This document shows positions 28,859 through 53,689 of a stretch of 64,000 bases of DNA, piece by piece (the first letter of the stretch is position 1; the number at the start of each line of letters is the position of its first letter). Under the pieces are notes generated by a model. That model ran no database searches, was not told the DNA's origin, and worked only from the letters and a program-made list of their open reading frames with translations. This DNA comes from Callorhinchus milii (Eukaryota). The position numbers and the translations under genes are program-made. Location of the stretch: contig NW_024704746.1 of NCBI RefSeq assembly GCF_018977255.1, forward strand, positions 60,078,001-60,142,000, given 5' to 3'.

Positions 28859-28969
28859 CTCCTTGAATGCGGCTCTCATCTCTCCTCCTGGAAACATTCC
28901 CAGCTCTTCTACAACAAAGTTGACTCCCATAATGAACAGGAACTCCAACAACCCCACCTTAACACCCAC
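28859..28969 (-). CDS. TRABD: TRABD-like coding exon (not shown in this frame in the ORF track)
   Basis: Acceptor gtattgactAG, donor GAG|GTAGGA; 111 nt, phase 0-0. Hand translation VGVKVGLLEFLFIMGVNFVVEELGMFPGGEMRAAFKE, versus human ...EQLGMAPGGEFREAFKE. Confidence 0.88.
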
Positions 28970-29029
28970 CTAGTCAATACGTTGAAAGAAAAACACAGTG
29001 ATTTGCAAGAGTGCCTGCACTTGAAATGA

Positions 29030-29512: not shown

Positions 29513-30524
29513 CAAATTATTTTCCTATAAGTTCTATTTAAAATGTTTGTTGTTACAAATAAATTACATCTTTATTATTTCTTCTGACTAGAAAAAACTC
29601 CATGACTGCTAGGGTGTGCAAACAATGTCAATGAGGATATTTGGAAATGTCACTCAAGTAGGTATCATGTCCGGTTGGCAACATACAAAACTTCACCACC
29701 TCTGCTTCATGATACAAAAAGAAGAAATACAGGAAAGAGTGAATACAATACATTATAATAATCCTTGTGTTTGATATAGTGCCTTATCACAACTTGAGAA
29801 GTCTCAACGTGCTTCACAGAATACAACTGTAAAGTAAATTGATTGTATATTTTGTGGGCAAAATATTCACCTGCAGTATCTAGGGTACCAATCACATCTT
29901 CAGCTATCTATAGAACATATGTCCTGCCAATTGCAATCATCTTGCTCTGTTTTTCCTTTGATTCTCCCCCAAGGCTTTGTTTCTTTTTTCATCCCCTTCA
30001 CCTGTCTGGTACTGTGCCCTTCCTCCATCTGCTCTGTGCCTGCTCTATCTGCATCAAAGTCACAGCTCTCTTCGTCTTTCTTGCTAACACGGCCAACTCT
30101 TCAATGAGTCGTGTCACCTTTCTTGCCCTGATATGAATCAAAGTCTGAACAGTATTTTCCATTTCTCACACTATTTGTGTGCTCTCTCTGAATCAGTTGT
30201 CCAACTTAAAGCTACATTAACTGCACAATAAAAAGATGGTTCACAGCTTTTTATTGTGCTTTGTCTGGATAGGACTGCCCTACTGACAGAGACTGGCTTG
30301 CAGTGTTCGCAACATCATATACATCCAAACCAACCATCAATAATACCATGGATTACTGTGGATCTCCTTGGAGAATGTTGAATCCTGGGGAAACCTTGCT
30401 TACCGCTGTCCAAAGGAGATTGTTTTTTAGACAAGGTACATATTTTAACAAAGCCAAGAGGCTGAAAAATTGAGAGAAAACAATAGAATTCAAATTCAGA
30501 TCCAAGGCTTATTTGACTGACTAG

Positions 30525-30885
30525 AACAACAACAACAACAAGATTCCATTTATAGAGCGCCTTTCACGTCGGGAGGACGTCCCAAGGCGCTGTACAGTTC
30601 GGTCAGGACCCGAGCAAGGGGGAAATGGTCAGGGTGAGGGAAGGGAGGGAGCGAGGAGGGGGTAGAGAGTCGAGAGGGGAGCTGAAGGCACGGTCAAAGA
30701 GAAAGGTCTTGAGACCGGCCTTGAAGGAGGAAAGGGAGGAGGCGGCGAAGGCACTGGGGGATAGAGTTCCAGAGCCGAGGGGCTGAGAGGCTGAAGGCCC
30801 GGCCACCGATGGTAGGGCGGTTGGGGCGGGGGATGTGGAGCAGACCGGAGCCAGAGGAACGGAGGGTACGGGCAGGTAGGTAGGG
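30525..30885 (-). mobile_element. L2 LINE 3' fragment (young; closely similar copy at 33192-33495)
   Basis: SFKAGLKTFLFDRAF, and tail cgcctttcacgtcgggaggacgtcccaaggcgc with (AAC)n. Confidence 0.8.
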
Positions 30886-31139
30886 GGATAGTATGTATGT
30901 AGTTCAATCTCATCAGGGTGGATTGGATTCAATCCTAGGCCATAACTAGAGCATTGGTCTTCAAACACACTGTTCTACCAAGTCCATCAAATGCACTAGT
31001 CTTTTATGTCTTAATATATTTTAGTCATTAAAGAATACAAGGTTTTGGTAACAGTGTACAACACTGGAATTCCGTGGGGTCTTGCGTTATCACCACAAAG
31101 CACCAGATTTTGGCTCAGAAATGAAATAGAAACCTGCAC

Positions 31140-31280
31140 CTCCTTTATTTTCCTTAGCAGCAGTTGTAGGTTCACGGTTTCCATCGCCTCCATCAGTTTC
31201 TGCTCATCCCAATGCAGCAATGAAACTCTGCTATTACAGAGTTCCAAAATGACCGAGTCTGGCTGCAGTTGTTGGATAGT
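31140..31280 (-). CDS. TRABD: TRABD-like coding exon
   Basis: Acceptor tttttttcttgcAG, donor GAG|GTGCAG; 141 nt, phase 0-0. TIQQLQPDSVILELCNSRVSLLHWDEQKLMEAMETVNLQLLLRKIKE, versus human TIREVQPDVVVVELCQYRVSMLKMDE... Confidence 0.88.
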
Positions 31281-32378
31281 CTGCAAGAAAAAAAAACAAT
31301 CCTTTCTATGATGCATCATCAATCAAATAAAACCAATGTATGCTTCTTTTATCTTTTATATAGGAACAGTGGAGCCTCCCTCTAATATTCTCTTTTGAAC
31401 TATAAGGGTTAGAGATAATAGATATCATACTTTCTCTCCTTAAAGAAAAAGTCAGAACAATGCAAACTATAGGAAAGGCGATGCTTTGTCCACTGTTTTC
31501 AAGACGTTTCGTGGGTCAGTGTCATACACAAGAGGATCTCTGGAGGAGCTGCAATTTATTCCCACAGGTACCTTTTCTAGTGCAAGCACCATTTACGCTC
31601 CTGTTTTCCTGTTGAATGCTTGTTAGTTCCCATTGCTGCAGATATACCAGGGCAGTATAACTCTACAATGCACTAAATGATTAAGTGTGCAATTGTACCA
31701 ATAATGTTCCATCTTCTCTCTTCACAGAACAAAGAGAACTCAGTGGAGTTTTTGTCACTTCAGAGGAGCAGCCCACACCTGAACAAGAACCATCATCTAC
31801 GCTGACAATCGAATGCGGTGCTGACCCAACGCTTCATTGTCAGAGGTGCTATCCATCGAGTTAGATGCACCTCTGACAATGACAATTAACCTCCTTAAAG
31901 AGGAAGAGGTTAATTTGAAGAGGTTAATGATCCCATGGCATTACTCATAAAAGTTTATGAGTTTACGCCATTGCTCTAGCCAACTTTTCTCATTCCAACT
32001 AGCCATCTCTAGCCACCATGAGAAGCCCTTACCTCAAATGTAAGGATCATCATTATTATAACCACTACTTAGGTCTGTGGGACGCTGCTGCGTGCAATTG
32101 GCTGCTGCGTTTTGCCCACAAAATATACAGTCAATTCGTTTTACAGTATATTCTGTGAAGCGCTTTACGACGTCTCGAAGACATGATAAAGCGCTATATC
32201 AAAAGCAAGGATTATTTTTATTATTATTTATTATTGTGCTGTTGCTTGTTTAAAACAAAACAGATCCATGTACTTGGGGAAAATTTAGATACGACTGAGA
32301 AATCAGTTCATAACATGTAAATTTACTGATGTTTGAAGAATTGTCATCTCGGTCTGCTGTGGAACAATCCTGGATTAC

Positions 32379-32545
32379 CTGCTTTACATCTCTTATGCTC
32401 TTCTTACTGACATGTGCAGTGCCAACTAAGTAGACTTTGCAGCCTTCTTCAGTGACGAGTTCAGTCACAGACTTTGGTAGTTTAGGTATCATCTTTCTCT
32501 TCCAAATCTTCACTGCCCATAGGAGGTCAAATACTTCTACATAGG
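32379..32545 (-). CDS. TRABD: TraB-domain protein (TRABD-like) coding exon containing the GTAH motif
   Basis: Acceptor tttcaatctgcAG, donor CAG|GTAATC; 167 nt, phase 1 to 0. Reads YVEVFDLL...LPKSVTELVTEEGCKVYLVGTAHVSKKSIRDVKQ, versus human LPRTVTQLVAEDGSRVYVVGTAHFSDDSKRDVVK. Confidence 0.9.
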
Positions 32546-33191
32546 CTGCAGATTGAAACAAAAATTACAGATTTATCACAGATAATGGCAACAAAAATTT
32601 CAACTGCATCAAAACTCTTCTTAAAACGGTATAATTTTAATTTTAAAAAAAAGGAAAACAAAATTTAGAAAGATTGGATCAAAGTGGAAAATATTACAGG
32701 TAATACACCAGGAATGGTATGTTGACATACCATAGAATTATCGTTTCACTTTGCAAGCACTTCCTGTACTGGGAAATTAAATCATCGCCCTAAATTGAGC
32801 TACAGGGGAATTTCCGATTGTTGATTTCTGTTTCAAACCACTGGATGCCTTTGCAAGATATCAGTAATGCAATTTCAAACAAAATACAAGCAATGGTTGC
32901 AACTAAAACAGGCATGACATGACCAACACGGGACATGTGTTAGAATATAATTTTCCCGATATCTCACTGAGTGAGACAAGCACATTGCCTGGAGCAGCAG
33001 GAGGCTTGGCTGTGATTACATTTCTTTCGCCGAGTAAGCCAGTTATCATTGACTGTCCAGAATCGTACATGAAGAATAGCCATTAGGGTGAGGGACTAGA
33101 GGGCTGAGGGTTCCAAGTGCATCACAGAATATACCGTAAAGCCAGTTGACCGTACATTTTGTGGACAAAACGCGTTCAGCAGTGTCCCACA

Positions 33192-33495
33192 AACAACAAC
33201 AACAACAAGATTCCATTTATAAAGCGCCTTTCACGTCAGGAAGACGTCCCAAGGCGCTGCACAGTTGGGTCATGACCCGAGCAGGGGGGAAATGGTCAGG
33301 GTGAGGGGAGGGAAGGGAGGGAGCGAGGAGGGGGGAAATGGTCAGGGGAGGGGAGGGAAGGGAGGGATCGAGGAGGGGAAGAGAGTCGAGAGGGGAGCTG
33401 AAGGCTCGGTCAAGGAGAAAGGTTTTGAGACCGGCCTTGAAGGAGGAGAGGGAGGAAGCAAGGCGAAGGCACTGGGGGATAGAGTTCCAGAGCCT
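33192..33495 (-). mobile_element. L2 LINE 3' fragment nested in a minus-strand SINE (33120-33690)
   Basis: Same tail as the 30525 copy; SINE pieces on both sides. Confidence 0.75.
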
Positions 33496-35572
33496 CGGAT
33501 TGAGTCGTGGATTGAGTGACCAGACTCTTATCAGATATATATTTTGAATGGATTATTACTCCCGGAAAACCAATCCACCAATCGACTGACAACCGGGTTC
33601 CTACTTACTGTTAGGTAAACAGAGGTACGTGTGTGGAGTAAGGAAATTTGCCCAACGTTTCGCCCTGCCCGGGAATCAAACCCAAGTCCTCAGCTGTTAC
33701 TAAGTTCAGCACAAGTACAAGAAGCTGTAACCACTGTAGAATTAGAGCATTTTCCAATGTTCAATTTATTATTGAAATAAACATACTTATTTGTTTGAAA
33801 GTGTCTGAAGCACTCCACCTCTGTCTTGTTTTCTGTTGAGAATAAAAAAATTGTCAACAACAAGATCTTCTGGAAGAACACTGAGGTCCTTTATTTGACT
33901 TCATGTAAAACATTCACCCACAATACATATGCCTGGACAAACCATCTTTGCTAAGTGGCCCAGATCAGAAAACCAGAGTATTTGGGTCTTTTAGTGGCTA
34001 GAAGTGTAACTTGGACACATGACCCTGGTTCCCATAGACCTGTGGACTTCATTCTCAGAGACAACCAAACATAACCTTACAGGGAACGTTCTACCTGTCT
34101 CTTCTGATATTTTCCTGATATCTCACTGAGTGAGACAAGCACATTGCCTAGTGCAGCACGAGGCTTGGCTGTGATTACACTTCTTTCCCTGAATAAGCCA
34201 GTCATCATTGACTGACCAGAATTGTCCATAAAGAATAGCTGTTGAACATTTCCTCTTTGAATCACCCCAAGCACTCCACCATAATGCACACTTCTGACTT
34301 AAGAATTTCAGTTACTGTTTCATATCATGGAAAGTTTAGGATAGTTTTGTAACTCTTTCAGATATAGCGATAGTCTGTCCATGTACAGTGAGCTTCTCTT
34401 TCACAGGTACTGTTATTTATTGTTATAAACTCTTTCAATTTAGCACCCTGGTACTATGTTAAACATTAAACAGAAGGCAGCTCGCTGATAAAGTTGTGGC
34501 TGTGCTGCTTTACAAAGATTACTTATTCCCAGCCTACTTTGATAATTCTTCAAAACCAGTCAGGTATGGATAATGGTGTGTCTAGACGGATCCTCCAACT
34601 GAGAATCAATTGTCAAAACCAACCTTTGTCATCATTAATAAGAATTGTTGATTAGATTTGTGCTGTGGTTTTCAGGCACTAAAACCTACCTTAGACCTTG
34701 GAATAATTAATAGCTATTTTGTCCCTTCATAATCATTCAACACAAAAATATCCAAACAAGCAATAGAGCAGAAACAACTCAAGGGACTGTACAAGGCAAT
34801 TTTGAAACACTACAGTGCTTTTTTATTAAATGCTATTTCTCCCTGATTCTACCTCCAAGTGACAAATATAAATTTGTATCATACTCTGTATTGATTTTCA
34901 GTATTTGGTTAATTCGTTCCAAAGACTTAAGCAGGTATCATTATTGTCTTAATATGGTGAAGAATGCAAAGTTTCAAAACACATTCAATGTCATTATTTC
35001 TTCTGAAACATTGCACCAAAGCAGGATACACTGTGCATCGAAAAAATTCTCCCAAAATTGAACAAATTTAAAGCACCTAAATTCCTAAAGAGTATAAAAT
35101 CAAAAACCTGCAAGCCTACTTATGTGGCAACTTATTAAGGGGAGAAATTTAGAGTAACCTGGGTCTAGAGTTACTCTAAATATGCAGCATTTTTTAAAGA
35201 GTGTCTAGAATTTGGCAAGTGGTTGAATTCAGTCTTAGTTTGGAGGTCGTTTCCTGTTGTTCTTCAAAGAAAAGAAAACCTGCTACAAAATTCAGGCCCC
35301 TTGGTTTAACTTCTCAACCGAAGGGTGGCACCTCCGGCAATACATCACACTCCTAGCACTACATTGAAGTGTCAGCATAAACCAAATCAGTTCTAATTCC
35401 TGATGTGGGGCTTGAACCCAAAACCTTCTGATTCATAGGCAAGAATACTACCAACTGAGCCAGACTGACGCACATTAATGCCGATTGGTTAGGAATGTAA
35501 CTTTAAACCACATACAGGATGAGGTAGTCCAACCTACACTCTGGACTATCCTGGTGAAATCAAAGCCATTTA

Positions 35573-35955
35573 GAGTCCTGTGACTAAGTGGTTAGAGAAC
35601 TCGCTTTGTATGTCAGAGGGTTATGTCATGGTTTTGATTCGTGGCAGGGTGAAATGTTGGGCAAGTTTCCTTACTCCAAACGCCTGTTTGCCTAGCAATA
35701 AGTAGGGACCCAGTTGTTAGTTAATTGGCGGATCGCTTTTCTGGGGGTAATAATTCCTTTAAAATAAATAAAAATAATTTGGTCACTCAATCTACGACTG
35801 TTTGTGGGACACTGGTGCAGATTGGCTGCTGCGTTTCGCCCACAAAATGTACAGTCAATTCACTTTATAGTATATTCTGTGAAACACTTTGAGATGTCTT
35901 GAAGATGTGATAAGGCGCTATATTAAAATGCAAGGATTATGATTATTATTATTAT
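35573..35955 (+). mobile_element. tRNA-derived SINE, full length
   Basis: Head gagtcctgtgactaagtggttagag, body and (ATT)n tail. Confidence 0.85.
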
Positions 35956-36119
35956 TTGCCAGTTAATGGGGGGAGATTATGGTATGTATGTGTGTATCTC
36001 CTCCCTTATTTTCTTTTGCACAGTACAGTAATGGTACAGGTGCAAGAAGATTGGAGGGAAAATTTTAAATGCAAAATTAATCAGCTTAATAAAAAGAAGT
36101 TCAAATAAAACAAACTTGC

Positions 36120-36155
36120 CTTTCTCTTTTTCCTTCCTGAGAGAATTCTGTAACC
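36120..36155 (-). CDS. Candidate 36-nt upstream micro-exon of the TRABD-like gene (GC-AG donor)
   Basis: Strong acceptor tttttttgtttttcAG and donor AAG|GCAAGT. A phase 1-1 reading (xLQNSLRKEKEK) joins the 32545 exon in frame. No homology support. Confidence 0.3.
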
Positions 36156-38474
36156 CTGAAAAACAAAAAAATTGACAAAGCCTCAGCTGTGTTATGACTG
36201 TAACTGAAGGCCCACATTAATAATAGTGCAATTATACTATATGTGCTGATTTGCTGCCAGTGCCATTTTTAGAATGGTGCAAACAGACAGCAAGTGCAGT
36301 GTTATACAACCTCCTCCCGCTGCTCTCCATTGAGTCAAATGTTGGCAGAGGTCTCACTCCCGCTGTCAGTGAATTTGATTTATTTTGCCAATTTTTTCCC
36401 TTCTTCGTCACACGTGAAGTCATTTGGCTTCTTCCTTTCCCTAAGATACTGTTTCAAGGTCTCTCTCTGGTACGTTGCCAACTCTGATACTTTGCCACAT
36501 ATCTATTATTCATCCATGAGCCTTGTCTGTGTACTATTTAACCATGAGGGAGGGAGGGACGGTGGCATCACAGTTCAGCCTAATCTTATCATCGCATGAT
36601 GTGAAAGGAGGCATAGAGAGCGTGTATCCTCCACAGGCACACTTCCACTGAGAACAGCTGGTGAGTGAATACTCAACACTCCCCACACAGCAATTTCTAC
36701 ATTTCTGCCAAGCTATTGAGGAAGGCATAGAGCAAAGAGCATGTTTCCTCCGCAGGTACCAGAAGGAAAATCAAAGGTTAAGCCACCCCCGTCTGCTCTC
36801 ATACGTCTCCATATGGCCAATCATTTGAAGCATTGAAAGAAGCCAAGCACTAAACCAAATTAATTCTGCTGCACAAAATTTCACAATGTATGTTGGGAAT
36901 GGGGCTTTGGTTAAAAGCATTATTATAATCCTTGATATCGCGCTTTATCGCACCATCAGGACATCTCTCATCACTTCACATGATTTTTACCGTGAAGAGT
37001 TATGACTTGTACTTGTGGGCAAATTGCCATCTGTGGCCTTGGCCTTCAAAATACATTCACTGAAATTTACAGCAAATGTGAAGATTTTTGAGACTTCCTC
37101 CTTATGTGAAAGGCACTATATTAAATGCAAGATTTATTATTTATATTATAAGTGAGGTCATGAAATAAACAGTCTTATCTGACTGTAATTACAAAAGGTA
37201 TCAATCATACCTCCTCCACCACCCATTTGATAACCCTCCCTACCTTGTTGTGTTGATTTCGCAGCATCACTGAATTTATTTTCTTTTATCAGATAGATGG
37301 GGTTCTGTATGAAAAATAACAAATGAAGTTAAGCAGATTGATGGAAAACCCACTTCACACAAAACTGGCCATATTTCACAACTCATTGGGTAGCTTAATC
37401 ATCACATGAAACTCATAAAACACAACTGAATTTGGCCTAATGACTGATTAAAAATACATTGTTTGCAGCCTTGTTTTGGGATAACTATAAACTTTTGTAT
37501 GCTTCAGTGTCAAATAAAAGTATTGGAGCAATTCCGGATACATTGAATTACTGTATAATAATAATAACAATCTTTACATTTGATATTGTACCTTTCACTT
37601 CAAAACAACAGCTCAAAGTGCTTCACAGAATTTACTGTGAAGTGCAGTGGCTATATTTTGAAGGCAAACACAGTAGTCAATTTGTGCCTAGCAAGATCCC
37701 ATAAACGTTTCTGGAGGGGTTGTTGTCCAGGACACCAGGAGAAAATCCATCAATCCCTCAGATCAAATTGAGGAGTAGAAGTAGAAAGAGAAAGATTGGG
37801 CTGGTGCCACCTTGTTACTATTCAATGCTTTAAAGCAGGTTTCGTTTGTGACACCAAACACTGCGAATTGCATGGATAATTAACGTCAGTCTCTAATTAA
37901 GGAAAACTACAAGTTATTACTGCTTGATCAAGGTAAAAAAATTCACTTTGATAAAGAATTGACCAAATGTTTGTGTTTAAACTCAGCATGATTATTACCC
38001 CTCAAACCAGGACAGTGCAGTTTATGGCACAGCCAACATTGCTGGGGCACTTTCAACCATGTCACAGTTTCATCAATCAAGTTTACAGGAATGATCAGAA
38101 AACAATAGAAAATCTATGTCAACATTTATGATTTAGTTTCAATCCAAGCTGTTTGTTTCACTTCTGGATTCAGTGAAAAACTGGTTTCTGTTCAACTTTC
38201 CTCATGATAATTCCTTGACTTTCTTGCATATCAGACTGCTTGTACGTCTTGTACATTTTGTTTTGGGGGAATAATAATAATCCTTACATTTGATATACCG
38301 CATTATCATGTCTTTGAGCGCTTCACGGAATATAGTGTAAAGTGTAGTGACTGCATATTTTTTGGGTGAAACGCAGCAGCCAATTGCACACAGCAATAAT
38401 TCTCACCTTGATCAACGGGTGTAGCTGATTTTCTGCAATTCTCTTCCCAAAAGCGGAAATGTTACCAAAAATCA

Positions 38475-40341: not shown

Positions 40342-43300
40342 GGTCATTGGTTAGTTGCCACCCATAATTATTATTTGTCAGTCCAGTTGCATGGAATATC
40401 AGCCAAAATATGATGGAGATACACTAGTGTCCAATGTGATACTACATTTTTCTGCCATATAATGCTGATCTCAGAAGTACCTGACTGAGATCATTAACTT
40501 ACAAGCATCAAGCAACTTGTTCTCTGTTTTGTAAAGCAGCTTTACGTCTGCTCATGAAATAGGAAAGGATTGAAAATGACAATATGCAACATTTCATAAC
40601 ATGAATAAATGGCCCAAAAATATAACCGTAAAACATAAAAGTAAAAACAGTATTTGAATATTACATTTGCAATGTTTCGAGCAATGGAATGTACATGAAG
40701 AAATGCCTTTGGCTCCATAACGTTTTAGGGATATCTTCAGCAGGTTTGCAAACTATTTAAAATAATAAATAAAATGAATATCCCATCTTTCTCGCCAGTA
40801 TAAGTCCAAATACTGTAAGGTTGATAAGATTATACTGTATTATACAAGGTGATATACTTAGCAACAGAATGTCAAAATTGAATCAATCCTTTATGGTGGT
40901 ATTGGAGTTTTGGTAACCCTGTTCCTGAGCCAGACAGGTTAACAGTACTCCGGGGCAATGCTGATGGTAGTTCTGCCAGCCTATTTCCATGTGCATCTGG
41001 CATTACACAGAATTCTCAGTTTGGTTTGAATACCTCTAAGCATGGTAATGTGTTTCCACATGTGTCAGACACCGGACTGACCAAAAAAACTCAACACGCC
41101 AAGGTTAATAAGTTTGCCAGAACAGCAGAACATGCAACACATTTACCCAACAAAGCTGGCAGACTCTCTAATTGTAGTATTTCTGCCTTCGTCCTTCGTC
41201 AAGTCTCTGAATTCACCTTGTAACCATTTCTTGTAAAATGAAAATAAATAAGGACTTACAGTACTTCGAAATGTCCTGCTTCTTCACTTACACCTGAATG
41301 AAAAGTGAATGATTTCTGTAGAAAACTACAGTGAAAATGAAACCAAAAGGAATTGTTTAATTTGACTTCCTGTCACTGATAGATAAACAAGTACGGTTTC
41401 TGAGCTAGTTAACCCTTACTGGATCACAGTGGTATTTCTGAATAATAAAGCATTAGTTTCTTGACTTTCTTCCTAAAGATTGCAGAACATGTTGATGTGG
41501 TGAAAATGATATGTGCATTTCATAATCTGTGATATATGTAAGTTTATTTTTCTTTCTTTGCTGGTACATTAGTGCTGATGTGTTCAATCACTGTCCTAAT
41601 GAGCTCTTGATTTTCAATCCCATTTCTGAGGGATTTCTTCAAACCTTCAAAATGTTTCCTTAGAATCTTTTGAAAGCATTGCTTTGAAAGTTCAGACCAA
41701 GTTCTGTTACATTGGAGTTTTATTTATGATATTCACAAACCAGATTTGTTGTGTTAATTGTAATTTCCAGTTTCCAGCGTACAATTTGCGAAATCCATGG
41801 GGGAAAAATGCAAAGCAGAAATTGCAGTTATCACAGTGAAGGTAGTTTGCACTGTCATTCTCTTCCAGTGTCTTCTTTGCATAGCTATAATTATAAACAC
41901 AATATCATTCTATATTGATATAAACTATGAACTCAAGTGGTCACACTGGGGCTTGAACCAATTCCATCACAGAAGTGAAAATGTTACCACTGAACCAAGC
42001 TGATTCTTCTACATTTTAAATTTAAATGTAAGTAAGAGTTAAGCGACTCGTAAACCCTAATTGTTAAACCATCAGTGACAGGAAGTCAATTGGCTGCCGC
42101 ATTTCACCCACAAAATACACAATGAATCCACTCTACAATATATTTTGTGTCAACAACGTCAATATATGTGTGTTCAACATGAGTTTTCTGCAACACATCC
42201 TTTTGCGGTAACAGCTTTCCCGCTTGCGCAATGTGCAAATTACCGGTACTGTAAGAAGAGATGAATTCACAAAATTTATGTGCAGAGTTCTGTTGTTCAC
42301 AGTTTTACAGGATATTGCCAAAGTGATCAGCATAAAAGAACAGTCGGTTCCCACGATGCATGTCAGCCTGGCTCAGATAGTAGAACTCTCTTCCATGAGT
42401 CAGATGGTTCTGAGTTAAATGCCGTTGTTGGAGCTCTAAACTCATATCCTCTACCCTGACGCTGCAATGTGATGCTGGGACTTTGCTGCATTGAGGTATT
42501 CAACTTGTGAAGCACACTGAGACTACTTCACGACTTGAAAGATAGCACATCAGACGCAAATTTTATATTTGTAAATGAATATGAACCATCTCTGTGTTTG
42601 TCACATCTTCTTCCATACCTTCCAAAATGCAACTAGCCATTCTGCATTGCTCTCTAGAATTCTAGCACACTATTGCCAGACACCACTGCGCCTTCCTCCC
42701 CTCTTTCAAGGCATATCTCAAAATATATTTCTTTAATTGCGCTTTCGATCATCTTTGATAAACAAATAAAAATCATTTGGTTACTCAATTCATAACTGTT
42801 TGTGGGACACCATTGTGCGCAATTGGCTGCCGTGTTTAGCCCTCAAAATATACAGTCAATTGACTTTACAGTATATTCTGTGAAGCACTGTGAAGCACTT
42901 TGAGACGTTTTGAAGACGTGATAAGGCGCTATATCAAATGCAAGGTTTATGATTATGGTTATTATTATTAACTTTCCCCTGCCACTGCCAACTCCGGTGC
43001 ACATGTGAAGTACTTTGAAGCATCCTCCCGATAGGTACTGTAAATTGCCAGATCAGAAACCAAAGTTTGTGCACTTACGATTCCTTTTATCCATTATTCT
43101 ATCATTTTCACCTCAACAACTGTTCATAATCACAATCAAATATTTTGAATAACAGCTTCAACAATTTGCATTTCACGTAGGATAATGTCTCGAAGCACTT
43201 AAGAGGAAACTTAAGAGGAAACTTAAGAGGATGCATACATGAGGGAAAGGATATATAGAAGGGGATTAGGAGGGGGTGAAGGTTCATCTGAAGTATTAAC

Positions 43301-44449
43301 ACCATCATAGGCCAAATGGCTTGTTTCCGTGCTGTATCCTTCTATGTATTTCTATGCTTTACAGAAATGTTGACGGACACCAAGCAGGGAGAGTGGGGGA
43401 AGAGAAGATGACTGTACACATGTATCAATAAGGTTTTTAGGAAGCTTTTAAAACCAGATAAAGAGAGAAAAAGGCTGAAGTATTTAGCTGGAGGAGTTCC
43501 AGAGGGCAGGGGTATTGAGGCTGCAAGATCGGACCCTGATGGTGAGGCAGAGTGGGAAAGGAATGTGCTTGAGTTTGCATAATGAGGTCTGAAGGTGACA
43601 GACATAGAGGGGTGAGGGATTTATCGGTGAAAGTGATTTACTAAAAGATAATCATTTTTATCAATTTTGATCACACATTTGCCAAGTTTACTGATTCAAG
43701 CCACACGGGAGTTTGATATTATAGTCAAGGCTGACACTGCCAGGTGGTAAGAGAAGAGTACAGCATTGTCAAATGGTGCCATCTTCCAAATGAGACTTTA
43801 CAATCAAACGCTGACTGCTTGTTTTGGTGGATGTTGAAGATCCCACATTCCTCCATAAAAAAATCCAAGGACTGTTTCTCTGTTGAGTAATTTGGGAATA
43901 TTTTAACTCACTGCGTTTTAACCAAATCCTACGTTTTAAAAAATAAAAATAAATAATTTACTCTTACTGGTTACATTTATGAAATGATTTAATATACAGT
44001 TTAAAGTGTAAAGATTTTTTAACGTTCTTAAATAAAGTATTTAAACCACGATCAAATTGTAGTTATTAAAACAATGTATTGATTCAACATATACCCTTGA
44101 AAGTGTAATTTTTAAAAAAAACAATCTTAAGTATCGAAACAACCTTCAGCTTGTAAAGTTATTAAAATAGTGAGTCAGTCACTCAGAGTATAGGTTTTTT
44201 AAAAAACATTTTAAAGTATTTAAACCACCTTCAGATCGTAAAGTTATGAAAAAAAACAATAGATATATTGATGCAAAACTAAATATGGATTATACGGTAC
44301 ACATTCTTGAGCAAGACTGAGCTGCTGAGTGAATGAGTGAGTGAGTCAATGAGTCAGTCAATCAGAGAGTGAGTGAGTGAGTGAGTCAGTCAGAGAGTGA
44401 GTGAGTGAGTGAGTGAGTCAGTCAGTCAGTCAGTCAATGAGTCAGTGAG

Positions 44450-44805
44450 TCACCCTTGTCTTCACATCCCTCCACTCCTCTGCACCTGCTACCTCTCTGA
44501 CCTCTCTCCTCACAACAGTGCCCTTTGCCTTCGTTCCACCGGTCTGGCCTCCTCCTTGTCCCCCGAATCCTTCCCTCCACCCTCGGCAACCGTGCTTTCA
44601 GCCATTATGCGCCGAGGCTCTGGAACTCCCTTCCTCACGCCCTTTGCCTCATCCCCTCTCTTCTTATTTTCAGGTCTCGGCTGAAGACCTTTCTTTTCGA
44701 CAGCACCTTTGGTCACCTTCCTCCCCCTCTCCCTGGCTCAGCCCCGGGATCCGTTACCATGAAGCGCTCTGAGACGACGTCCGACGTGGAGGACGCTATA
44801 TAAAT
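44450..44805 (+). mobile_element. L2 LINE 3' fragment within the satellite
   Basis: GNRAFSHYAPRLWNSLP...FRSRLKTFLFD. Confidence 0.78.
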
Positions 44806-44924
44806 CCGAGTGAGTGAGTGAGTGAGTGAGACAGTGAGTGAGACAGTCAGTCAGTAAGAGAGTGAGTGAGCGAGTGAGTGAGCGAGTGAGCGTGTGTGTG
44901 AGCGAGCGAGCGAGTGAGTGAGTG

Positions 44925-45275
44925 AACAACTTGGATTTATATAGCGCTCTCTACGCCAGACAGTGTCTCAGAGCGCTTTACAGTATGGATCCCGGGACCG
45001 AGCCGGGGGAAGGGGAGGAAGGTGACCAAAGGCCCAGTTTGAAAAGAAAGGTCATCAGCAGAGACCTGAAAATAGGAAGGGAGGGGGCGAGGCGAAGGGA
45101 GTGATGAAGGCAAGGACTGGGGTGATCGGGGAGCGGAGTTTTGTGCAGGTGAGAATGCGGGCGGCAGAGTTTTGAATGATTTGGATGTTATGGATGGTAG
45201 TGGATGGGAGACCGGTGAGGAGGGCGTTAGAGTAGTCCAGCCAAGAGGTGACAAAGGCATGGACCAGGATTTCAG
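44925..45275 (-). mobile_element. L2 LINE fragment within the satellite, tail-to-tail with 44450-44805
   Basis: Reverse-complement L2 tail (gctatataaatccaagttgtt) plus an [18 protein letters not shown] segment. Confidence 0.75.
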
Positions 45276-45543
45276 GGAGTCAGGGAGTGAGTCAGTCAGG
45301 GAGTGAGTGAGTCAGTGAATGAGTGAGGCAATGAGTGTGTCAATGAATGTGTCAATGAGTCAATCAGTGATTGAGTGAGTGAGTGAGTCAATGAGTCACT
45401 GAGGAAGTGAGTCAGTCAGTGATTGAGTCAGTCAGTTAGTGAGTGGGAGGGAGGGAGGGAGTGAGTGAGTCAGGGAGTCAGGGAATGAGTGAGTCAGTTG
45501 GTCAGTGAGTCAGTCAATGAGTGTATCAATGAGTCAGTCAGTG

Positions 45544-45732
45544 NNNNNNNNNNNNNNNNNNNNNNNNNNNNNNNNNNNNNNNNNNNNNNNNNNNNNNNNN
45601 NNNNNNNNNNNNNNNNNNNNNNNNNNNNNNNNNNNNNNNNNNNNNNNNNNNNNNNNNNNNNNNNNNNNNNNNNNNNNNNNNNNNNNNNNNNNNNNNNNNN
45701 NNNNNNNNNNNNNNNNNNNNNNNNNNNNNNNN
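45544..45732. other. Assembly gap (N run)
   Basis: Run of n characters. Confidence 0.99.
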
Positions 45733-45973
45733 GTGGGTGAGTGAGTCAGCGAATGAGTGTGTCGATGAGTCAGTCAGTGATTGAGTTAGTGAGTGAGTGA
45801 GTCAATGAGTCACTGAGGAAGTGAGTCAGTCAGCGATTGAGTCAGTCAGTTAGTGGGTGGGAATGAGTAAGTTAGTTAGTTTGTTAGTGAGTTAGTGAGT
45901 GAGTGAGTTAGTGAGTCAATGAGTGAGTCAGTGAGTGAGTCAGGCAATCAATCAGTGAGTAAGTGAGTGAGGA

Positions 45974-46693
45974 TCATCTTTGTGGCCCCCCGGCGGGAGG
46001 AAGCCTGGCTGCCAGGGCACAAGCCAAGACGATGCTGATAGTCTGAGCCAGTGCCGAGCCCAGTGCCCCGGCCGTGATGTGGAACACATTGTCGCTCACG
46101 AACTGGTGGATCTTGCTGAAGCAGCCTGGCCGGTGGATGCCCGGGGCGCCGGGCGAGACGGGGTTGTGGTCGCAGCCCTTCCGTACGGTGCAGCAACTGA
46201 GGGGCACCGACCCGTTGGCCCACGGCTCCCCAGGCCAGGGCGAGGGGTACCAGTCCCGGTAGCTGTGGACTCCGCAGCAGTCCAGCGAGCGCTGCATGCT
46301 GTTGATGGCGTTGGCTTTCTGCTCGTCCTCCCCGTACAGCTCGATGGCTCGGCTCAGACCCCTCTGGAGACCCTCGGCGATGTCCCTGTGGTAAAACAAG
46401 CCCGACAGCCCGGCCGCCAGCCCAGCCGCCAGCACCGCCGCCTGGAAGATGCCGTAGGTCCTCAGCAGCCGCTTGTTCTCGGTGGCGGCGCTGAAGCAAC
46501 CCAGGAAGCCCCAGAACAGCACCACGCCGCCCGCGGCCAGCAGGATGAACGGTGTGTTGGGGTAGCCGTGGGCGGACAGGACCAGGTAGTGACCCAGCGA
46601 GATCTTCGCCCAGATGCCCACCGTGAACATGCCCAGTCCCGCCACCCAGAAGACGGAGCTGAAGACCACCAGCGAGACCTTGAGCAGAGCCAT
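45974..46693 (-). CDS. Intronless tetraspanin, TSPAN6/TSPAN7-like (239 aa from the Kozak ATG)
   Basis: gccATGG start at 46693. Four hydrophobic segments, GFLGC in TM2, and a large loop with DCCG, PLSCC, KGC and PGCF (6 Cys) plus an NGS sequon. Resembles TSPAN7 (VFWITG...NAPYVL...QRSLSCCGV...IPPSCC). No introns; TGA at 45976-45974. Confidence 0.9.
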   Translation of the reverse strand: MALLKVSLVVFSSVFWVAGLGMFTVGIWAKISLGHYLVLSAHGYPNTPFILLAAGGVVLFWGFLGCFSAATENKRLLRTYGIFQAAVLAAGLAAGLSGLFYHRDIAEGLQRGLSRAIELYGEDEQKANAINSMQRSLDCCGVHSYRDWYPSPWPGEPWANGSVPLSCCTVRKGCDHNPVSPGAPGIHRPGCFSKIHQFVSDNVFHITAGALGSALAQTISIVLACALAARLPPAGGPQR

Positions 46694-46726
46694 GGCCCCC
46701 GCGCTGCTGGGTCTGCGGGGCAGGTG

Positions 46727-46862
46727 GGGCTGGCAGGGCTGGCGGGGCTGGGGTTGGCAGGGCTGGGGCTGGCAAGGCTGGGACTGGCAAGGCTGGGGCT
46801 CGTAGGGCTGGCAAGGCTGGGGCTCGCAGGGCTGGCAAGGCTGGGGCTGACAGGGCTGGCAG
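46727..46862 (-). repeat. 15/24-nt GC-rich tandem repeat encoding QPC(Q/E)P units in the tetraspanin frame
   Basis: Plus strand ggctggcagggctgg-type units. Minus-strand translation CQPCQPQPCQPCEPQPCQPYEPQPCQSQPCQPQPCQPQPRQPCQP. Confidence 0.85.
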
Positions 46863-47990
46863 TCGCGGGGGAAGGAGTTCAAAGCCAAGCCTTTGGAGTC
46901 GCAGTTCCCACAGGAAGAGTCGGAGGCGAGAGGTTTCTCCTGGGTTCTCCCGGGCTCGGGCTCTGGCCGAGGGTTGCCCCTGGGCGGTGTCCGGCAGAGG
47001 GCGGCGATGGTGTCGGTGTAGGCGGGGAGCTCGCACGCCACTCCACCGGGAGCCACGGAATTCCTCTGGACACGAGGATACGCCTGGACACCCACCGCAC
47101 CACCGCCCGGGACCCTGATGGGGAGGAGAACCTCCTGCCATCACCAGCCCCAGCGAATCCCGTCCGGTAGATAACAGGACCCCCCACCTTGAAGAGGATT
47201 TGCCATGCTCTGCCACCCCAACCCCCAACCCCACCACCACCAAAAAATAAATAATAACACCCCCCGCAGATGAATGCGGAGCCGTTCAAATCATCTCCAA
47301 TTAAACTGCAAAATTAAAAGAAAATAAAAAAAAGAGAGGAAACTAAAACTCCAGCTTTGCTCGTGTGTTTTCTTGGTCAACGTCGATCTGGGGGTGGAGA
47401 GGGGAGTGGACCCCCCAATACCCACTCTACCTCATTGGCCATTAAATCCTTCCCTCATCGCACTTGAAAGCCATGAGGACAGACATGATCAGCTCATAAT
47501 ACCAACACAAACACACACATACACCCAAAAAACACCTGTCAACATGGCCTTTGAGACTGACTTCAAGCCATTGCATGCATGGGGGTGGGGGGTGTTGTAC
47601 ACATATATATATAGTGTGTGTGTTTAAAAAAACATGCACGTCTTGTTAAAAATTGGTTCCTTTCATAGCATTCATTGCAATTCAACACATAAATCGGGTT
47701 GGAAATGAAATACTGAACGAGAGTAGGAGTGGAGTATCTGAACATTTTCTATTTTTCACACGGTTATTGATGGGGGGGGGGCGGTTACTGCAAGTTGTTC
47801 TGTGTTGATTGAAGGCTCCAGAGAAACTCCAGTGCAGTCTGCAGGCTTTCCCTGTTGAATGTATTGTGCACCAAAGAGCCATACACTTTGTACTGATTTA
47901 TGCCCAAACCCACACCCACGATCTCTCCTTTATTTGTTTTACTTCTGGAAAGCAATAACGCAGTTATTGTTGGAAGTCATTAGTTAGAAA

Positions 47991-48533
47991 CAAGATAATT
48001 ACAATAGATTACGGTATCACAATAGATCCATACAATTGCAATAGATAATTACAATAGATTACGATATCACAATAGATCAATACAATTGCAATAGATAATT
48101 ACAATAGATTACAATATCACAATAGATCAATGCAAATGCAATAATAATAATAATAATAATCCTTGCATTTGATATAGCGCTTTTCACGTCGGGAGGACGT
48201 CCCAAAGCGCTTCACAGAACACACTGTAAAGTGAATTGACTGTATATTTGTGGGCGAACGCGGCAGCCAATTATGCACAGCAATGTCCCACAAACAGTCG
48301 TAGATTGAAAATGACCAATTTATTATTGTTTTGGGTTTTGGAGGGATTATTATTAGGCTCTGTGTGGAGTAAGGAAACTTGCCCAAGGTTTCGCCCTCTG
48401 CCTGGAATTGAACTCAGGTTTCTCACTTGCAAAGCGAGTGCTCTAACCACTGAGCTACAGGACTCCAATAGATAATTACAATAGATTATGTATCACAATA
48501 GATCAATACAATTGCAATAGATAATTACAATAG
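47991..48533. repeat. ~50-bp AT-rich minisatellite interrupted by a SINE
   Basis: Unit caatagataattacaatagattacgatatcacaatagatcaatacaattg occurs ~3 times before 48139 and ~1.4 times after 48466. Confidence 0.85.
48139..48466 (-). mobile_element. Young tRNA-derived SINE inserted in the minisatellite
   Basis: Intact head and tail; caata on both flanks (possible target-site duplication). Confidence 0.88.
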
Positions 48534-50570
48534 GACCCAGGAAGAAAAAATACATGTTTTCTTTTTTTTTAAATATTTTTTATTTTCTTTATTAAAGAAA
48601 AATGTAACACTTTTGTGTAATGTTTTCCCATACATATAGCGCCCTTGTACGTGTGTGTGTGTGACATATTAAAGTAATATCATTTTTAAACCTCAAACCC
48701 TAAAGGGTTGTGACTTGTCACAATGTGTCGCAGAACCTGTTTTACTACAAAGCCAATCAACTCTGGAGTTGAGATGTATGGCTTGATGCTACATCGTGAT
48801 TTGTAATGCTTCCTTGAGATATCATATCGATTCCCATAATTTTTTTAAAAAGAAAGGCTCTACATACTCGATTGCTTGAATTAGTCCTTATGCTTATTTT
48901 TATACTTGTCTCGGCTTGTAACTGATATTGCATTAATTGATATTCACTATTAATGCGAGCTTATCCATAGAAACCATTATTTTCGAAGTAATTGCTTGAA
49001 AATCTAATGAAGATGTTTATGTACCTTCATTTAATTAAAGCAAATCTCTCTTCAGGAAAGCGTTAAAAAAGAGAAGAGTTAGAAATCAATAGGAGTTTTG
49101 TGAGTTTCCACTTTAAGCTATCTCGCTCCTCTTTAGACCATAAATAAGCAAGAAGCAATATAAAGTATACAGTGGATATCTTCAAGATTTATACATTACT
49201 TTGGTGATTTCGATCAGTGAAGTTCAGTCGATAGAACAAACTTGTGCCGCGATCAGAAGGCTGACAGTTAAAATCCCATGTTTATAGTATTGGGAGAATA
49301 TTGGAAGTCTCATCTTTTGGATGAAATATTAAACCAATGTCTATTTTTGAGCTTAAACATTAAATGGAGTTTCTCCTGGTGTCCAAGATCATTAATCTCA
49401 CAGGTGTTTGCAGGATCTTGTAGGTACGAACAGCTGTCATATTTGGTTACAAAAACAGTTACTACATTTGACAGTAATCAGTTGTGAAGCACTTTACATG
49501 ACAATTTGACAAGGTACTATAAAAAGATACAAATTTTTGATAGAATTGAATGACTTATTTATTTTATTCACAAATAATTACTTTATTATTCTATTCAGTA
49601 ATTGGCCACATTTGAAAACGCATCAAAATCATAGCAACACATGATTGATTGTTGATTAAAAATTAAAATCAATAACCATTTAAACCGCAATAACTGATGT
49701 GACATATCCGTCCCCTGATGTGCATTGCAATCAAAGTTCCTGTGTGAATGTAAATGTTTGAAATCGTATATTACAAAGACATGAAAACATAAAATTATGG
49801 TCTAGATGCCTTATACACTTCGTGTATTTATAGTAAAATCACGAAATATTATTTGTGCCTTTCACACAACATAATCCTAGAGTATTCAAATTGGAAATGT
49901 GAGTTGTGAAATCCTCTGTAGTACAATTGCAGGGATGCAGAGATGATTTCACAATCCAGCAAGAGTTGCAACAATGTACAGTATCATAAAGTAGGAAAAA
50001 TACACGTATAACAAGGTTAGAATCTATGCCGAAATAATTTTATTCTTAAAATCTACAGAAGTGAAAAAGTTTCGTGACTGCAAACAAGCCTTTTCTTTTT
50101 ACATTTTGTCAATAGCCAGTGCTGAGTTGAACACACGCTAACTTGAATAAAATAAAATACTCAACTTGTATTTCATTTAGCGCGTTATCACATCAAAACG
50201 TGCAAAAGCTTTGGACAATAATATTAAAATGCAGTGCCTGTTGCTGTGGCGATTTTCGGACTAAGGGAAAAAATTCGCCAAGAGAAGGGGAGGTGACATT
50301 GTGTGTAGGGCAAGGTCGCCAGGTGTGATCTGAAGACGCACGAGCGTACGAGGGAAGGCAAGGCGGAGGGATTGAGTATTAAATGTTTCATCCAAGTGCT
50401 TTTTTCATTTGTATGGGTAATTCTTTATACACTTATGTGAGGCCGAGGAAAGTTTGCAAAGTTCTGAGAAAGAGATATTTGGGAAATGATCTTCGTTAGG
50501 TTTTCCCGATCAAACTAAACTTTGATAACAGGTTGGATGGCCGCATTTGAAAACGCATCAAAGACATGAT

Positions 50571-50861
50571 GCAAGCGAGAGACCTGAGTTCAATTCCAGG
50601 CAGAGGGCGAAACCTCGGGCAAGTTTCCTTACTCCACACAGAGCCTAATAATAATCCCTCCAAAACCAAAAACAATAATAAATTGGTCATTTTCAATCTA
50701 CGACTGTTTGTGGGACATTGCTGTGCGCAATCGGCCGCCGCGTTCGCCCACAAATATACAGTCAATTCACTTTACAGTGTGTTCTGTGAAGCGCTTTGGG
50801 ACGTCCTCCCGACGTGAAAAGCGCTATATCAAATGCAAGGATTATTATTATTATTATTATT
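50571..50861 (+). mobile_element. Young tRNA-derived SINE (5'-truncated), near-identical to the 48139-48466 copy
   Basis: Shares the diagnostic junction ccacacagagcctaataataatccctcc and the tail gggacgtcctcccgacgtgaaaagcgc. Confidence 0.88.
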
Positions 50862-51129
50862 GGGCCAACTGAGGGCCAGGTTGTTAAACACAGTAGTTAG
50901 CAGTGGGGAAGTCTGTTCTGTGAGGTTACCACCACCTGTGGCTGTGTCCCAGGACTCACGCCCAATGGGGCGGGTTGGTGATGGCATTGGGCGTGATTTA
51001 AGACGGCTTTGGGCGGTCCCTTAATTTTTTTTGCCATTTCATTTCGGAAAAAAACTTTTCCCTTCCCCTTTGAATACCTTTTCTTATAGCGTTTCGAGAG
51101 AGAGAGAGAGAGGGAGAAAAAAAGGGATA

Positions 51130-52330
51130 AGGAGGATAAACCGTTATTGGAGGCGGCGTGTAATATTTGGGCTACATTTGGGCTCGTGTCGGGATGACTT
51201 TGGGCTACAAACCGCGTTGGATGGCTGGCGAACCCCCCCGGTCAGAGAGCACGCGAGCCGGGCACCAACACGCATGCGCACTCTCACTCCCTCCCTCCCT
51301 CCCTCCCTCACACACGCGCGCGCGCGCGCGCACACACACAGCGGCGGCTCCGCCAACCGTTAAAACCCCAAACCTCTCGACGTCACCAAATGCCCGAGTT
51401 CACCCACCACTGGACCCCGGGGGGTGCGTCCAGTTTTTTTTGGTATTAAAAAAAAGGAAAATCAAGTCTCCGGCCACGAATTGAGCTCACAAAGGGGGGG
51501 GGGGGCAACAAGAGGGGGGGGGGCAACAAGAGGGGGGCGGGCAACAAGGGGGGGGGGCAACAAGGGGGGGGGGGGAAGCCTACGGCCTACAGTGCGAGCA
51601 ACGGCTCGGAAGCGGCGCGAGGGGAGAGAGAGAGAGAGAGAGAAAGGGAGGAGTGCGCATGAGCCGGGGCTGACCAACGGCCACGACAGCGCATGAGCCT
51701 GAGTGTCGCGGTGGCCTGTGGGAGTTGTAGTTCCCTCCCTCCTTCCCTCCCCTCCGCTGCCGGGTCAGGGAGCCAAAAGCGTTGACCGAAAGCCGGCGGA
51801 ACTACAGGTGCCAGCGGGCAACACGCGCGCCTTCCCCTCCGCCTCCTCCTCCTCCTCCTCACCGCCACACGCCTTTCGTAAGCGGGGGCCAAGCTGCCCA
51901 GCGAGAGGTGAGTCCCCGCTGTGAGTGAGTGCCTCAAGTGACACACCTGGCGGGGCTGTGGGCTGCCGGCGGGCGGGCGGGCGGGCGGGGCTGTGGGCTG
52001 TGGGCCGGGCCGTTCCCCCCCCTTCTCTCTCTCTCTCTCTGTCTCCTATTGTAGCCAAACGGGGTCGGTCGGTAAGTTAACGTCTGTGGATCAGTGTGTG
52101 ACCCGCACTTTTACATCAGTGATGATAGTGATGTGATGATGATCTGATAAGCACAGGGTGTGTGGCCGCCGCTGCACTCGGTTGAAGGGGTGGTGGTGGG
52201 GGGGGGGGAGAAGAGCAGTGCCCCCCCCCCCCCCCCGGTTGCTGTGGGGAGGAATGTCGCTCCCACCCATACGGTGCTGGTGGTGGATTCCCTCGTGCGG
52301 GACTACCGGCAATTCCTGCAAAAAAAAAAG
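51130..52330 (+). promoter_or_regulatory. CpG island / housekeeping-type promoter with probable non-coding first exon ending at 51907
   Basis: Abrupt GC- and CpG-rich block in AT-rich DNA. NRF1 palindrome CGCATGCGCA at 51271-51280, ZNF143-type motif at 51707-51732, CCAAT/GC box near 50961-50975, and consensus donor GAG|GTGAGT at 51907/51908. Confidence 0.8.
51707..51732 (-). promoter_or_regulatory. ZNF143/THAP11-type motif (ACTACAnnTCCCA extended SBS)
   Basis: Minus strand reads AACTACAACTCCCACAGGCCACCGCG. A second, opposite-strand variant AACTACAGGTGCCAGC lies at ~51800-51815. Confidence 0.7.
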
Positions 52331-53689
52331 GATTTTATTTCCATGGGATTTGAATCGATTCTCGGCTTCACGTTGACATTTCAAGCCTCGTGGACGCTTG
52401 TAATTTCACCTGCGTTAGTGTGAGTGAGTGAGTGTGTGTGTGTGAGTGGTGTGTGTGTGTGTATGGGGGGGGGGGAGGGGTGGAGAGATTTATACGTGTA
52501 CTTTTTTTATTGCTCTCGCAGAATTTCTTTCAAACTCACTGGGAAGTGACATGTTGTCGGTGGTGAGAGGAGGGGGAGGAGGGGGTTGGGGGGGTAACAA
52601 GACAAAGAGGTCTTTTTGACGTCGTTTTAAAGGGATATTCGTTTTGTGGCATTTATTTTTGGAGAGGGGTTTGGGTGGTGGGGGGGGGCGTTTGGGGAGG
52701 AAACCTCAGGTTTAGGGAGAGAGAAGAGAGTCAAAAGTGTCATTTGAATCACAATGGCAGCATATGCCAGTGATGCTTGTGACTTTACTGCATTTTCTTA
52801 AAAACACACATCAAGCGCTTTTTGTGAACATGCCATAAATTTCTTTTTATGTCTGAAGGGCCGGGGTTGGCAGCGGGACGCTTTTAGCGAGACTCGGAAG
52901 AAAACCGTGAGATAGAGGTTGTTTTCTGCGAGTAACTTTCACGCGAAGCTGCTGGAATCGTGTCGCAAACTTAAAGACGCAACAAGGAACATGGAAGTTA
53001 TTGTGTCCGTATGTTTTATGTAGTTTGAAAGGTAAAGTTTGCAGAAACTTAAGATTTGCGATAACTGGTACTGCATCAAATGTGCCTATAATGAGGTCCA
53101 CAATGGCGTTTCAAGTTTTAGTACTTTATTTTTAAGTGGCAAATTCTTATAAGTCCTGTTTTGATCAACAGTCTGTCACTGATACTAAAAGCTTTCGTGG
53201 AAGGGATTTTGTAAAGAAACTTAACAATTTGAAGAAAAACATTTTTAGTTCAACTTTCTAGGAATAATACACAAGAAAACATTTAACAGTTTTAAAACTG
53301 GCCACTTTGAGGATAGACACTGAACAGGTCAACAGTTGTGAGTTGAAGAATCTAAAGGTGGCTACTGGTTGATTGAATAATCTCTGTAGGTGTTGTAAGA
53401 AGACTACAATTTTTATGGCCCAGTATCGTGCAATAAAGTTGCCCATGCAGTTGAACAAGCATCAGGTATGATGCAAGAAAACAGATTCTAAAAGCAATAG
53501 TTATCATACTGCATGGTATTTATTCAGTTAGGACCACCCTAACATTTTTTTTTGGCCAGCTGGGTTTCTGACATGTGGAAATCTATCCATGCTTAAGAGT
53601 ATCCAAACAGGACTTAAGTTCCATATATGTATGCCACCTACACATGGAAATTTCACCGTGTCTGGGCATCCTCTCTCTTGAGTGACACA

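What the first reader, a model, noticed from the sequence alone, without database searches (positions are those of the whole stretch)
45974..47206. Tetraspanin frame is open ~150 codons upstream through a Gln-Pro-Cys repeat, behind a single in-frame TGA and a Kozak ATG
Seen in sequence: upstream of the tetraspanin ATG (46693) the same frame has no stop until TGA at 47143-47141. Just above that is an in-frame agcATGG at 47206 encoding MANPLQGGGSCYLPDGIRWGW*. The open stretch encodes QPC(Q/E)P repeats with unit lengths in multiples of 3 and much synonymous third-position variation (CCC/CCT, TGC/TGT, CAG/CAA), which suggests coding constraint. A pyrimidine-rich acceptor (ttctcctccccatcAG, 47115) could feed this frame from a phase-2 upstream exon. 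Inference: there may be an unusual tetraspanin with a long cytoplasmic SPRR/cornifin- or keratin-associated-like Cys/Pro/Gln tail (410 aa if the TGA is bypassed), where tetraspanin N-tails are normally short. Alternatively this is a regulatory in-frame uORF.
Basis: partly seen in the sequence, partly recalled or inferred. Interest (0 to 1): 0.7.

Follow-up and report, generated by a model that had tools for sequence, protein, structure and literature searches.

The report
Elephant shark tetraspanin's broken ancient tail
The open frame ahead of this elephant shark tetraspanin gene is the broken remnant of a long front end that ray, lungfish, coelacanth and sturgeon gene models still carry intact, so the shark likely makes only the short protein and the old start codon likely opens just a 21-codon upstream frame.

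Summary
The gene is the intronless 'TSPAN6-like' (databases: tetraspanin-7-like) tetraspanin. 57 of 120 listed relatives carry 60 or more residues ahead of the first membrane helix. A profile of eight such tails matches the window's open frame at 47086-46874 (E 3e-9), so the frame is old coding sequence. But the first ~37 tail codons lie in three frames here (shifts near 47188, 47141, 47118), which puts the TGA in frame with the ancestral ATG. All 4 DNA runs share this layout, and 2 of 4 carry an extra 24-nt repeat unit with an in-frame TAG. The Gln-Pro-Cys repeat is a local expansion of tail codons, not a cornifin-like domain; its synonymous variation is at neutral level. The proposed acceptor at 47115 is the codons of the old RRFSSPR motif; a much stronger acceptor lies at 47305, upstream of the ATG. 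The core also evolves fast (32 private changes against 0-6 in six relatives). Verdict: decayed N-terminal extension, now likely a uORF. The by-product of interest is an unstudied, motif-bearing long tetraspanin tail kept in many jawed vertebrates. No RNA evidence was obtained.

The parts
45974..46693 (-). Intronless tetraspanin core CDS, 239 aa (TSPAN6-like lineage; 'tetraspanin-7-like' in databases)
   Evidence: Pfam Tetraspanin E 1e-43; 70% identical to lungfish orthologue; CCG, DW, PLSCC, C, GC pattern
46694..47116 (-). In-frame remnant of the 3' three quarters of the ancestral N-terminal tail (141 codons, no ATG)
   Evidence: Alignment with ray, lungfish, coelacanth, sturgeon tails
46874..47086 (-). 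Stretch matching the tail profile, with CELPAY and EKPLASDSS
   Evidence: hmmsearch E 3.2e-9
46718..46872 (-). Lineage-specific tandem expansion (6, 9, 15, 24-nt units) at the place of the ancestral C-x-x-Q-P codons; length-polymorphic; one allele has an in-frame TAG
   Evidence: runs X2 and X3; CAG to TAG at 46834
47119..47145 (-). GDGRRFSSP: old RRLSSPR motif, now out of frame; its codons form the 'acceptor' before 47114
47142..47186 (-). WGVLLSTGRDSLGLV: old LLSGRQ(D/E)SLE(L/V)V stretch, now in the third frame
47141..47206 (-). 21-codon ORF from the likely ancestral start codon (MANPL against MTNEL/MTDEL of rays) to the TGA; predicted uORF
45948..47141 (-). Out-of-frame 397-codon ORF whose ATG overlaps the TGA by one base (TGATG); no Pfam hit; runs over the whole gene
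47305..47330 (-). Strongest splice-acceptor-like site upstream (T-rich tract + CAG, exon would start at 47305); predicted start of the exon, 99 nt before ATG 47206
   Evidence: Ranked first of all AGs in 47700-46694; T share 0.74, like the neighbouring TraB-domain gene's acceptors (0.47-0.74), against 0.26 at 47114

Best explanation
The open frame is the remnant of an ancient N-terminal tail of the TSPAN6-like tetraspanin, broken here by three frame shifts and in some animals by a further stop, so the long form is likely lost and only the 239-aa core would be made. Shown: homology of the frame to orthologous tails, the shifts, the TGA in 4 of 4 DNA runs, the TAG allele in 2 of 4, and fast evolution of the core. 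Inferred: the ancestral gene had two in-frame starts (tail ATG and the conserved Met at helix 1), which made the long form dispensable; the exon begins at 47305, so the mRNA would carry the old ATG; ribosomes would read 21 codons, stop, pass the overlapping out-of-frame ATG and re-initiate about 450 nt downstream at 46693, with output probably damped. The repeat is an expansion of tail codons, perhaps from when the tail was still read, and is now free to drift.
For: Tail profile match E 3e-9. Anchored frameshift-aware alignment of the first 36-39 residues of 5 orthologues gives shifts at 47188 and 47118 in 5 of 5 and at 47141 in 4 of 5; summed score reached by 4 of 300 shuffles; frame-0-only scores are 22-43 points lower. 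No substitution or indel at 47110-47206 in 4 of 4 DNA runs. X2 and X3 carry the same extra unit, reading C-H-P-Q-P-C-stop in the tetraspanin frame, each on the one long contig over the gene (codon change computed for X2, read by hand from the inserted letters for X3). Of the other 5 substitutions in the extension 3 change the residue. The helix-1 Met is kept in 53 of 57 tailed relatives. Core: 32 private changes at columns shared by six relatives, against 0-6 for each of them; terminal branch 0.51 against 0.00-0.09, though the genome is cited as one of the slowest-evolving (PMC5381603, passage).
Against: No RNA, ribosome or protein evidence; transcript start and splicing are untested. The 3' 141 codons stay open and align best or nearly best in frame 0 (frame-0 scores 79, 112, 48, 44 against 83, 120, 48, 45 with shifts), and 13 of 13 repeat spacings keep frame, which fits later or continuing translation of that part. 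The out-of-frame N-terminal matches are individually modest (1, 17, 11, 64 and 16 of 300 shuffles reach them), and an unanchored profile alignment recovered only the RRFSSP piece. The four runs come from one study, one may be the assembly's source, and contigs hide heterozygosity. Rate acceleration is significant in 8 of 8 tests with lungfish or coelacanth as outgroup but only 2 of 8 with sturgeon or bichir; part may be GC bias; no neighbour-gene rate control was run.
Confidence: 0.72

Rival explanations
1. The whole gene is decaying: not only the tail but the core is under weak or no selection and may be barely expressed.
For: Long branch; 8 departures at columns 90% conserved against 1-3 in sharks, rays, lungfish, coelacanth; 4 of 5 core substitutions among the four runs are non-synonymous and X4 has a 1-nt deletion near the stop; two further residues differ between database versions P0121 and P0001.
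Against: 239 codons without stop or internal shift; third-position GC 0.88 against 0.61 and 0.51; all six loop cysteines kept; 4 of 5 has P 0.09 at omega 0.3, so the sample is too small.
Confidence: 0.14
2. A shortened tail is still translated: an upstream phase-2 exon splices to 47114, or an in-frame GTG (47095, 47056, 47041) starts translation, giving a tetraspanin with the LPAY motif and the Gln-Pro-Cys repeat.
For: Frame-0 homology begins right at 47116; clear shifts cluster in the first 90 nt; repeat keeps frame; GTG 47041 has G at -3 and +4.
Against: In-frame TAG allele in 2 of 4 runs would cut any such product before helix 1; the acceptor is weak and explained by old codons; synonymous share in the repeat is neutral-like.
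Confidence: 0.1
3. The TGA is read through (or as selenocysteine), giving the 410-aa protein the first reader proposed.
For: Optimal Kozak ATG in frame, single stop.
Against: The first 30 codons in that frame do not match orthologous tails beyond MANPL; the context TGA-TGG is not the CUAG readthrough context (recalled); no Rfam match other than a tRNA-like piece in 41000-53000, so no SECIS at gathering score; TAG allele downstream.
Confidence: 0.02
4. The TGA and shifts are assembly errors and the animal has an intact tail.
For: The region is GC-rich with short homopolymers.
Against: 4 of 4 separately assembled DNA runs match the window over 47110-47206 without a gap or substitution.
Confidence: 0.02

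Closest known systems
TSPAN6-like lineage of Huang et al. 2010 (PMC2965184; zebrafish XP_001336998, chicken XP_426904, Xenopus CR855804), 'tetraspanin-7-like' in NCBI
   Same: The supplement's chicken and frog rows begin with the same letters as hits P0068 (core) and P0016, and its zebrafish row begins like tailed hit P0089. Same 6-Cys-a loop pattern. The figure legend names a divergent tetraspanin of retrotransposed origin in all bony vertebrates; that this is TSPAN6-like is my inference, the figure was not visible.
   Different: The paper's main text has 0 occurrences of 'N-terminal' and its four TSPAN6-like rows include no cartilaginous fish. Here the tail is broken, holds a new repeat, and the core is fast-evolving; relatives also occur in lampreys and marsupials.
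TSPAN7 (PDB 9w2b)
   Same: Closest solved structure by sequence, E 9e-44.
   Different: Chain of 250 residues with about 13 before the match; a different paralogue with no long tail.
SPRR/cornifin and keratin-associated Cys/Pro/Gln repeat proteins (recalled)
   Same: Composition of the translated repeat only.
   Different: No Pfam hit for the extension; the repeat sits inside a tetraspanin tail alignment and no relative has it.
uORFs left by decayed N-terminal extensions (scan notes on CPEB2 in this genome, BCL9, PAX6, LCOR; unchecked)
   Same: Old start codon kept, front end frameshifted, inner Met conserved.
   Different: Other genes; AI notes not tested here.

Membership tests
Tetraspanin (PF00335) | Four-helix core over the Pfam cut-off | tested here: met
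   149.8 bits against cut-off 32.1, profile positions 1-223 of 225
Tetraspanin, 6-Cys-a type | CCG--[DN][WY]--PXXCC--C--GC in the large loop | tested here: met
   CCG, DW, PLSCC, C, GC; pattern from Table 1 of PMC2965184
TSPAN6-like lineage | Closest relatives are the sequences that Huang et al. file as TSPAN6-like | tested here: met
   Starts of supplement rows match P0016, P0068, P0089; only the first 60-70 letters of each row were seen
TSPAN6-like lineage | Intronless coding sequence (retro-origin) | tested here: met
   One uninterrupted 239-codon frame; single full-length match in the genome
TSPAN6-like lineage | Monophyly against true TSPAN6/TSPAN7, and synteny | not tested
   Tree held only orthologue candidates; relatives' genomes were not available
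Long-tailed form of TSPAN6-like | Unbroken frame from the tail ATG to helix 1 | tested here: not met
   TGA and three shifts
SPRR/cornifin or keratin-associated protein | Match to family profiles or relatives sharing the repeat | tested here: not met
   0 Pfam families at E 0.1; 0 of 425 candidates at E 10
Readthrough or selenoprotein gene | Conserved coding sequence on both sides of the stop, or a SECIS element | tested here: not met
   Upstream codons out of register with orthologues; no SECIS at gathering score in 41000-53000
Regulatory uORF | Lies in the mRNA, is translated, changes main-ORF output | not testable with these tools
   No RNA data laid on this stretch; needs RACE, ribosome profiling, reporters

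The most novel reading that the evidence does not exclude
Jawed vertebrates have an overlooked tetraspanin with two starts and a 90-130-residue disordered signalling tail (kinase-type RRxS sites, an LPxY motif, cysteines next to helix 1), and the elephant shark still makes a cut-down version, by splicing into 47114 or a GTG start, bearing a length-variable Gln-Pro-Cys repeat that a common TAG allele switches off.
Probability: 0.1. Interest if true: 0.55.

Novelty: new variant of a known kind. Interest (0 to 1): 0.33.

Why it matters
It explains the oddity as loss in progress rather than recoding. It also points to something wider: a tetraspanin lineage whose long cytoplasmic N-tail is kept in ray, lungfish, coelacanth, sturgeon, bichir, frog and teleost gene models and is absent from the listed shark, lizard, lamprey and Xenopus models and most bird and marsupial ones. 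In 4 of 57 tailed relatives the inner Met is gone, so only the long form could be made. Tetraspanins usually have short tails (recalled), and my searches found no paper on this one, so zebrafish or frog offer a direct test of long against short isoforms. The elephant shark copy is a natural tail-less control and a fast gene in a slow genome.

Tried and rejected
Search with the extension alone: 0 of 425 candidates. ESM Atlas with the ray tail: no usable hit. AlphaFold of the ray protein from 17 sequences: mean pLDDT 51.5, residues 1-126 under 50; fits disorder but the model is poor, so no fold search was run. Pfam on 7 tailed orthologues: only Tetraspanin at E under 0.05. Idea that the gene is nested in the TraB-domain gene: its first coding exon is at 37267 on the same strand, 8.7 kb downstream; nesting depends on an unseen 5' exon, unresolved. 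TMEM243 as neighbour (prompted by one stickleback name): lies about 7.5 Mb away, rejected. PF01963 search missed the window's TraB exons. Local alignment and averaged-profile alignment found only the last shift; the anchored one found three. Further compensating shifts at 46993-46953 are favoured by only 4-8 points in two rays and not in lungfish, left undecided. Profile search of 1.84 billion representatives: of the best 150, only 3 match from the start of the tail. Earlier-findings look-ups by place and sequence were empty. Literature searches found no paper on the tail.

Full report
Observation. On the minus strand ATG 47206, TGA 47143-47141 and ATG 46693 share a frame, and 149 codons between the TGA and the second ATG are stop-free. 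The 239-codon core is a tetraspanin (Pfam E 1e-43); the extension has no Pfam hit. Named cluster members identify the gene as 'tetraspanin-7-like' of Callorhinchus milii. It is single-copy at full length in the genome. Openness alone proves little: 8.5% of 3000 shuffles are stop-free at this GC, and another frame is open for 445 codons.

Relatives. Of 193 hits the best 120 were listed; 57 of these have 60 or more residues before helix 1. Sawfish, skate, lungfish, coelacanth, sturgeon, paddlefish and bichir tails (92-130 aa) align with shared blocks: MTxELPY, RQ(E/D)SLEL, RRLSSPR, CELPAY, REESLAS. Frog and teleost tails share the start and motifs by eye but score weakly against that profile (best E 8e-5, many above 0.1), and six long turtle, bird or unnamed leaders show little or none of the motifs. 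Permissive patterns, with no null computed, are found in 51 (R-[RKQ]-x-S), 36 (R-x-S-S-[PAL]) and 38 ([LPI]-P-x-[YF]) of 57 tails; reading them as kinase, 14-3-3 and WW-domain sites is recalled knowledge. In 4 of 57 the Met at helix 1 is absent, which argues that the tail is translated in those species. Three shark models, and the listed lizard, lamprey and Xenopus models, are short; so are 8 of 9 marsupial ones; whether that is loss or annotation I could not test. The tail is predicted disordered in a low-confidence model.

The window's frame is that tail. A profile of eight tails hits 47086-46874 in the tetraspanin frame at E 3e-9; the next best other place among 858 six-frame pieces is E 0.63. 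The first ~37 codons are present but scrambled: LLSTGRDSLGLV in one other frame and GDGRRFSSP in the third. Aligning the first 36-39 residues of five orthologues from ATG 47206 to 47117 with shifts allowed gives shifts at 47188 and 47118 in 5 of 5 and 47141 in 4 of 5; the summed score is reached by 4 of 300 shuffles, the single scores by 1 to 64 of 300. The three shifts sum to zero, so the old ATG is back in frame with the core but reads a scrambled 21 codons to the TGA.

Other animals. Contigs of four DNA runs of one study were laid on 45900-48000. None differs at 47110-47206, so the TGA and shifts are real. X2 and X3 each carry an extra 24-nt unit; placed in frame both read C-H-P-Q-P-C-stop (X2 computed as CAG to TAG at 46834; X3 read from the inserted letters). 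Any product starting upstream, by readthrough, splicing or a non-AUG start, would end there in that allele. Contigs collapse variants, so zygosity is unknown.

The repeat. It lies where orthologues have C-T-W-Q-P or C-R-Y-R-P, so it likely grew from tail codons. Synonymous excess is absent: 6 against 7, with four of the six being one copied change.

The core. At columns where six sharks, rays, lungfish and coelacanth agree, the window protein differs at 32 against 0-6 for each of them. In a 22-sequence tree its terminal branch is 0.51 against 0.00-0.09 for those six, with unsupported placement; relative-rate tests are significant in 8 of 8 comparisons with lungfish or coelacanth and 2 of 8 with sturgeon or bichir. 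It ranks 12th of 140 for departures at 90%-conserved columns (7 of 147 rows dropped for gaps). 4 of 5 core substitutions among the runs change the residue. Changes lean towards GC-rich codons. Constraint looks relaxed, but the frame and loop cysteines are intact.

Mechanism. Most likely the ancestral gene had a long and a short start; the long form was lost here; the old ATG now opens a 21-codon uORF followed at once by an out-of-frame ATG (TGATG) that opens 397 codons. Re-initiation at 46693 after the short uORF is inferred from general knowledge of scanning, not shown. No RNA evidence was obtained.

Known work. Huang et al. 2010 (PMC2965184; I saw passages, sections 2.5 and 2.11, and supplement search hits) list this lineage as TSPAN6-like, including a tailed zebrafish sequence, without the word N-terminal in the main text; supplementary figures were not visible. 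PMC5381603 (passages) calls this genome one of the slowest-evolving. Other papers were seen as search listings only. Searches found nothing on the tail. Scan notes describe similar decayed extensions in other genes; I did not test them.

Verdict. Real feature, ordinary mechanism (decay of an N-terminal extension), with a worthwhile lead on an unstudied conserved tetraspanin tail. Interest 0.33.

Noticed in passing
window 446-1957 and 4360-4773 (+): Pannexin-2-like exons (weak Innexin hit; the name PANX2 is recalled from the sequence), converging on the TraB-domain gene.
   Followed up: no
window 21685-37267 (-): TraB-domain gene, about 11 coding exons mapped by tblastn with P0141; a second PF01963 match lies on C22 as one long frame.
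   Followed up: partly
window 51000-52100: CpG island with ACTACA-type motifs that I recall as ZNF143 sites of bidirectional promoters and a GTAAGT donor on the + strand near 52075; could drive the tetraspanin, the TraB-domain gene or both.
   Followed up: no
window 48398-48460 (-): tRNA-like head of a SINE (Rfam tRNA 39.4 bits).
   Followed up: no
window 45973-41000 (-): The stop is followed by long tetranucleotide repeats; the first poly(A)-like hexamer in readable sequence is 2 kb downstream at 43993.
   Followed up: no
window 45986: Run X4 has a 1-nt deletion in a G run that would lengthen the protein from 239 to 246 aa; one short contig only.
   Followed up: partly
P0121 against P0001, residues 131-132: Two database versions of this protein differ (DG against NS); relatives have D at the first place.
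   Followed up: no
L002 1213-1950: Another tetraspanin on C20 with a long uninterrupted frame and a Gln/His-run N-terminal leader.
   Followed up: no
L008 700-2300: 1.6-kb CAGCCC/CTGCC satellite on C10, non-triplet, giving 500-700-codon low-complexity frames on the other strand.
   Followed up: partly
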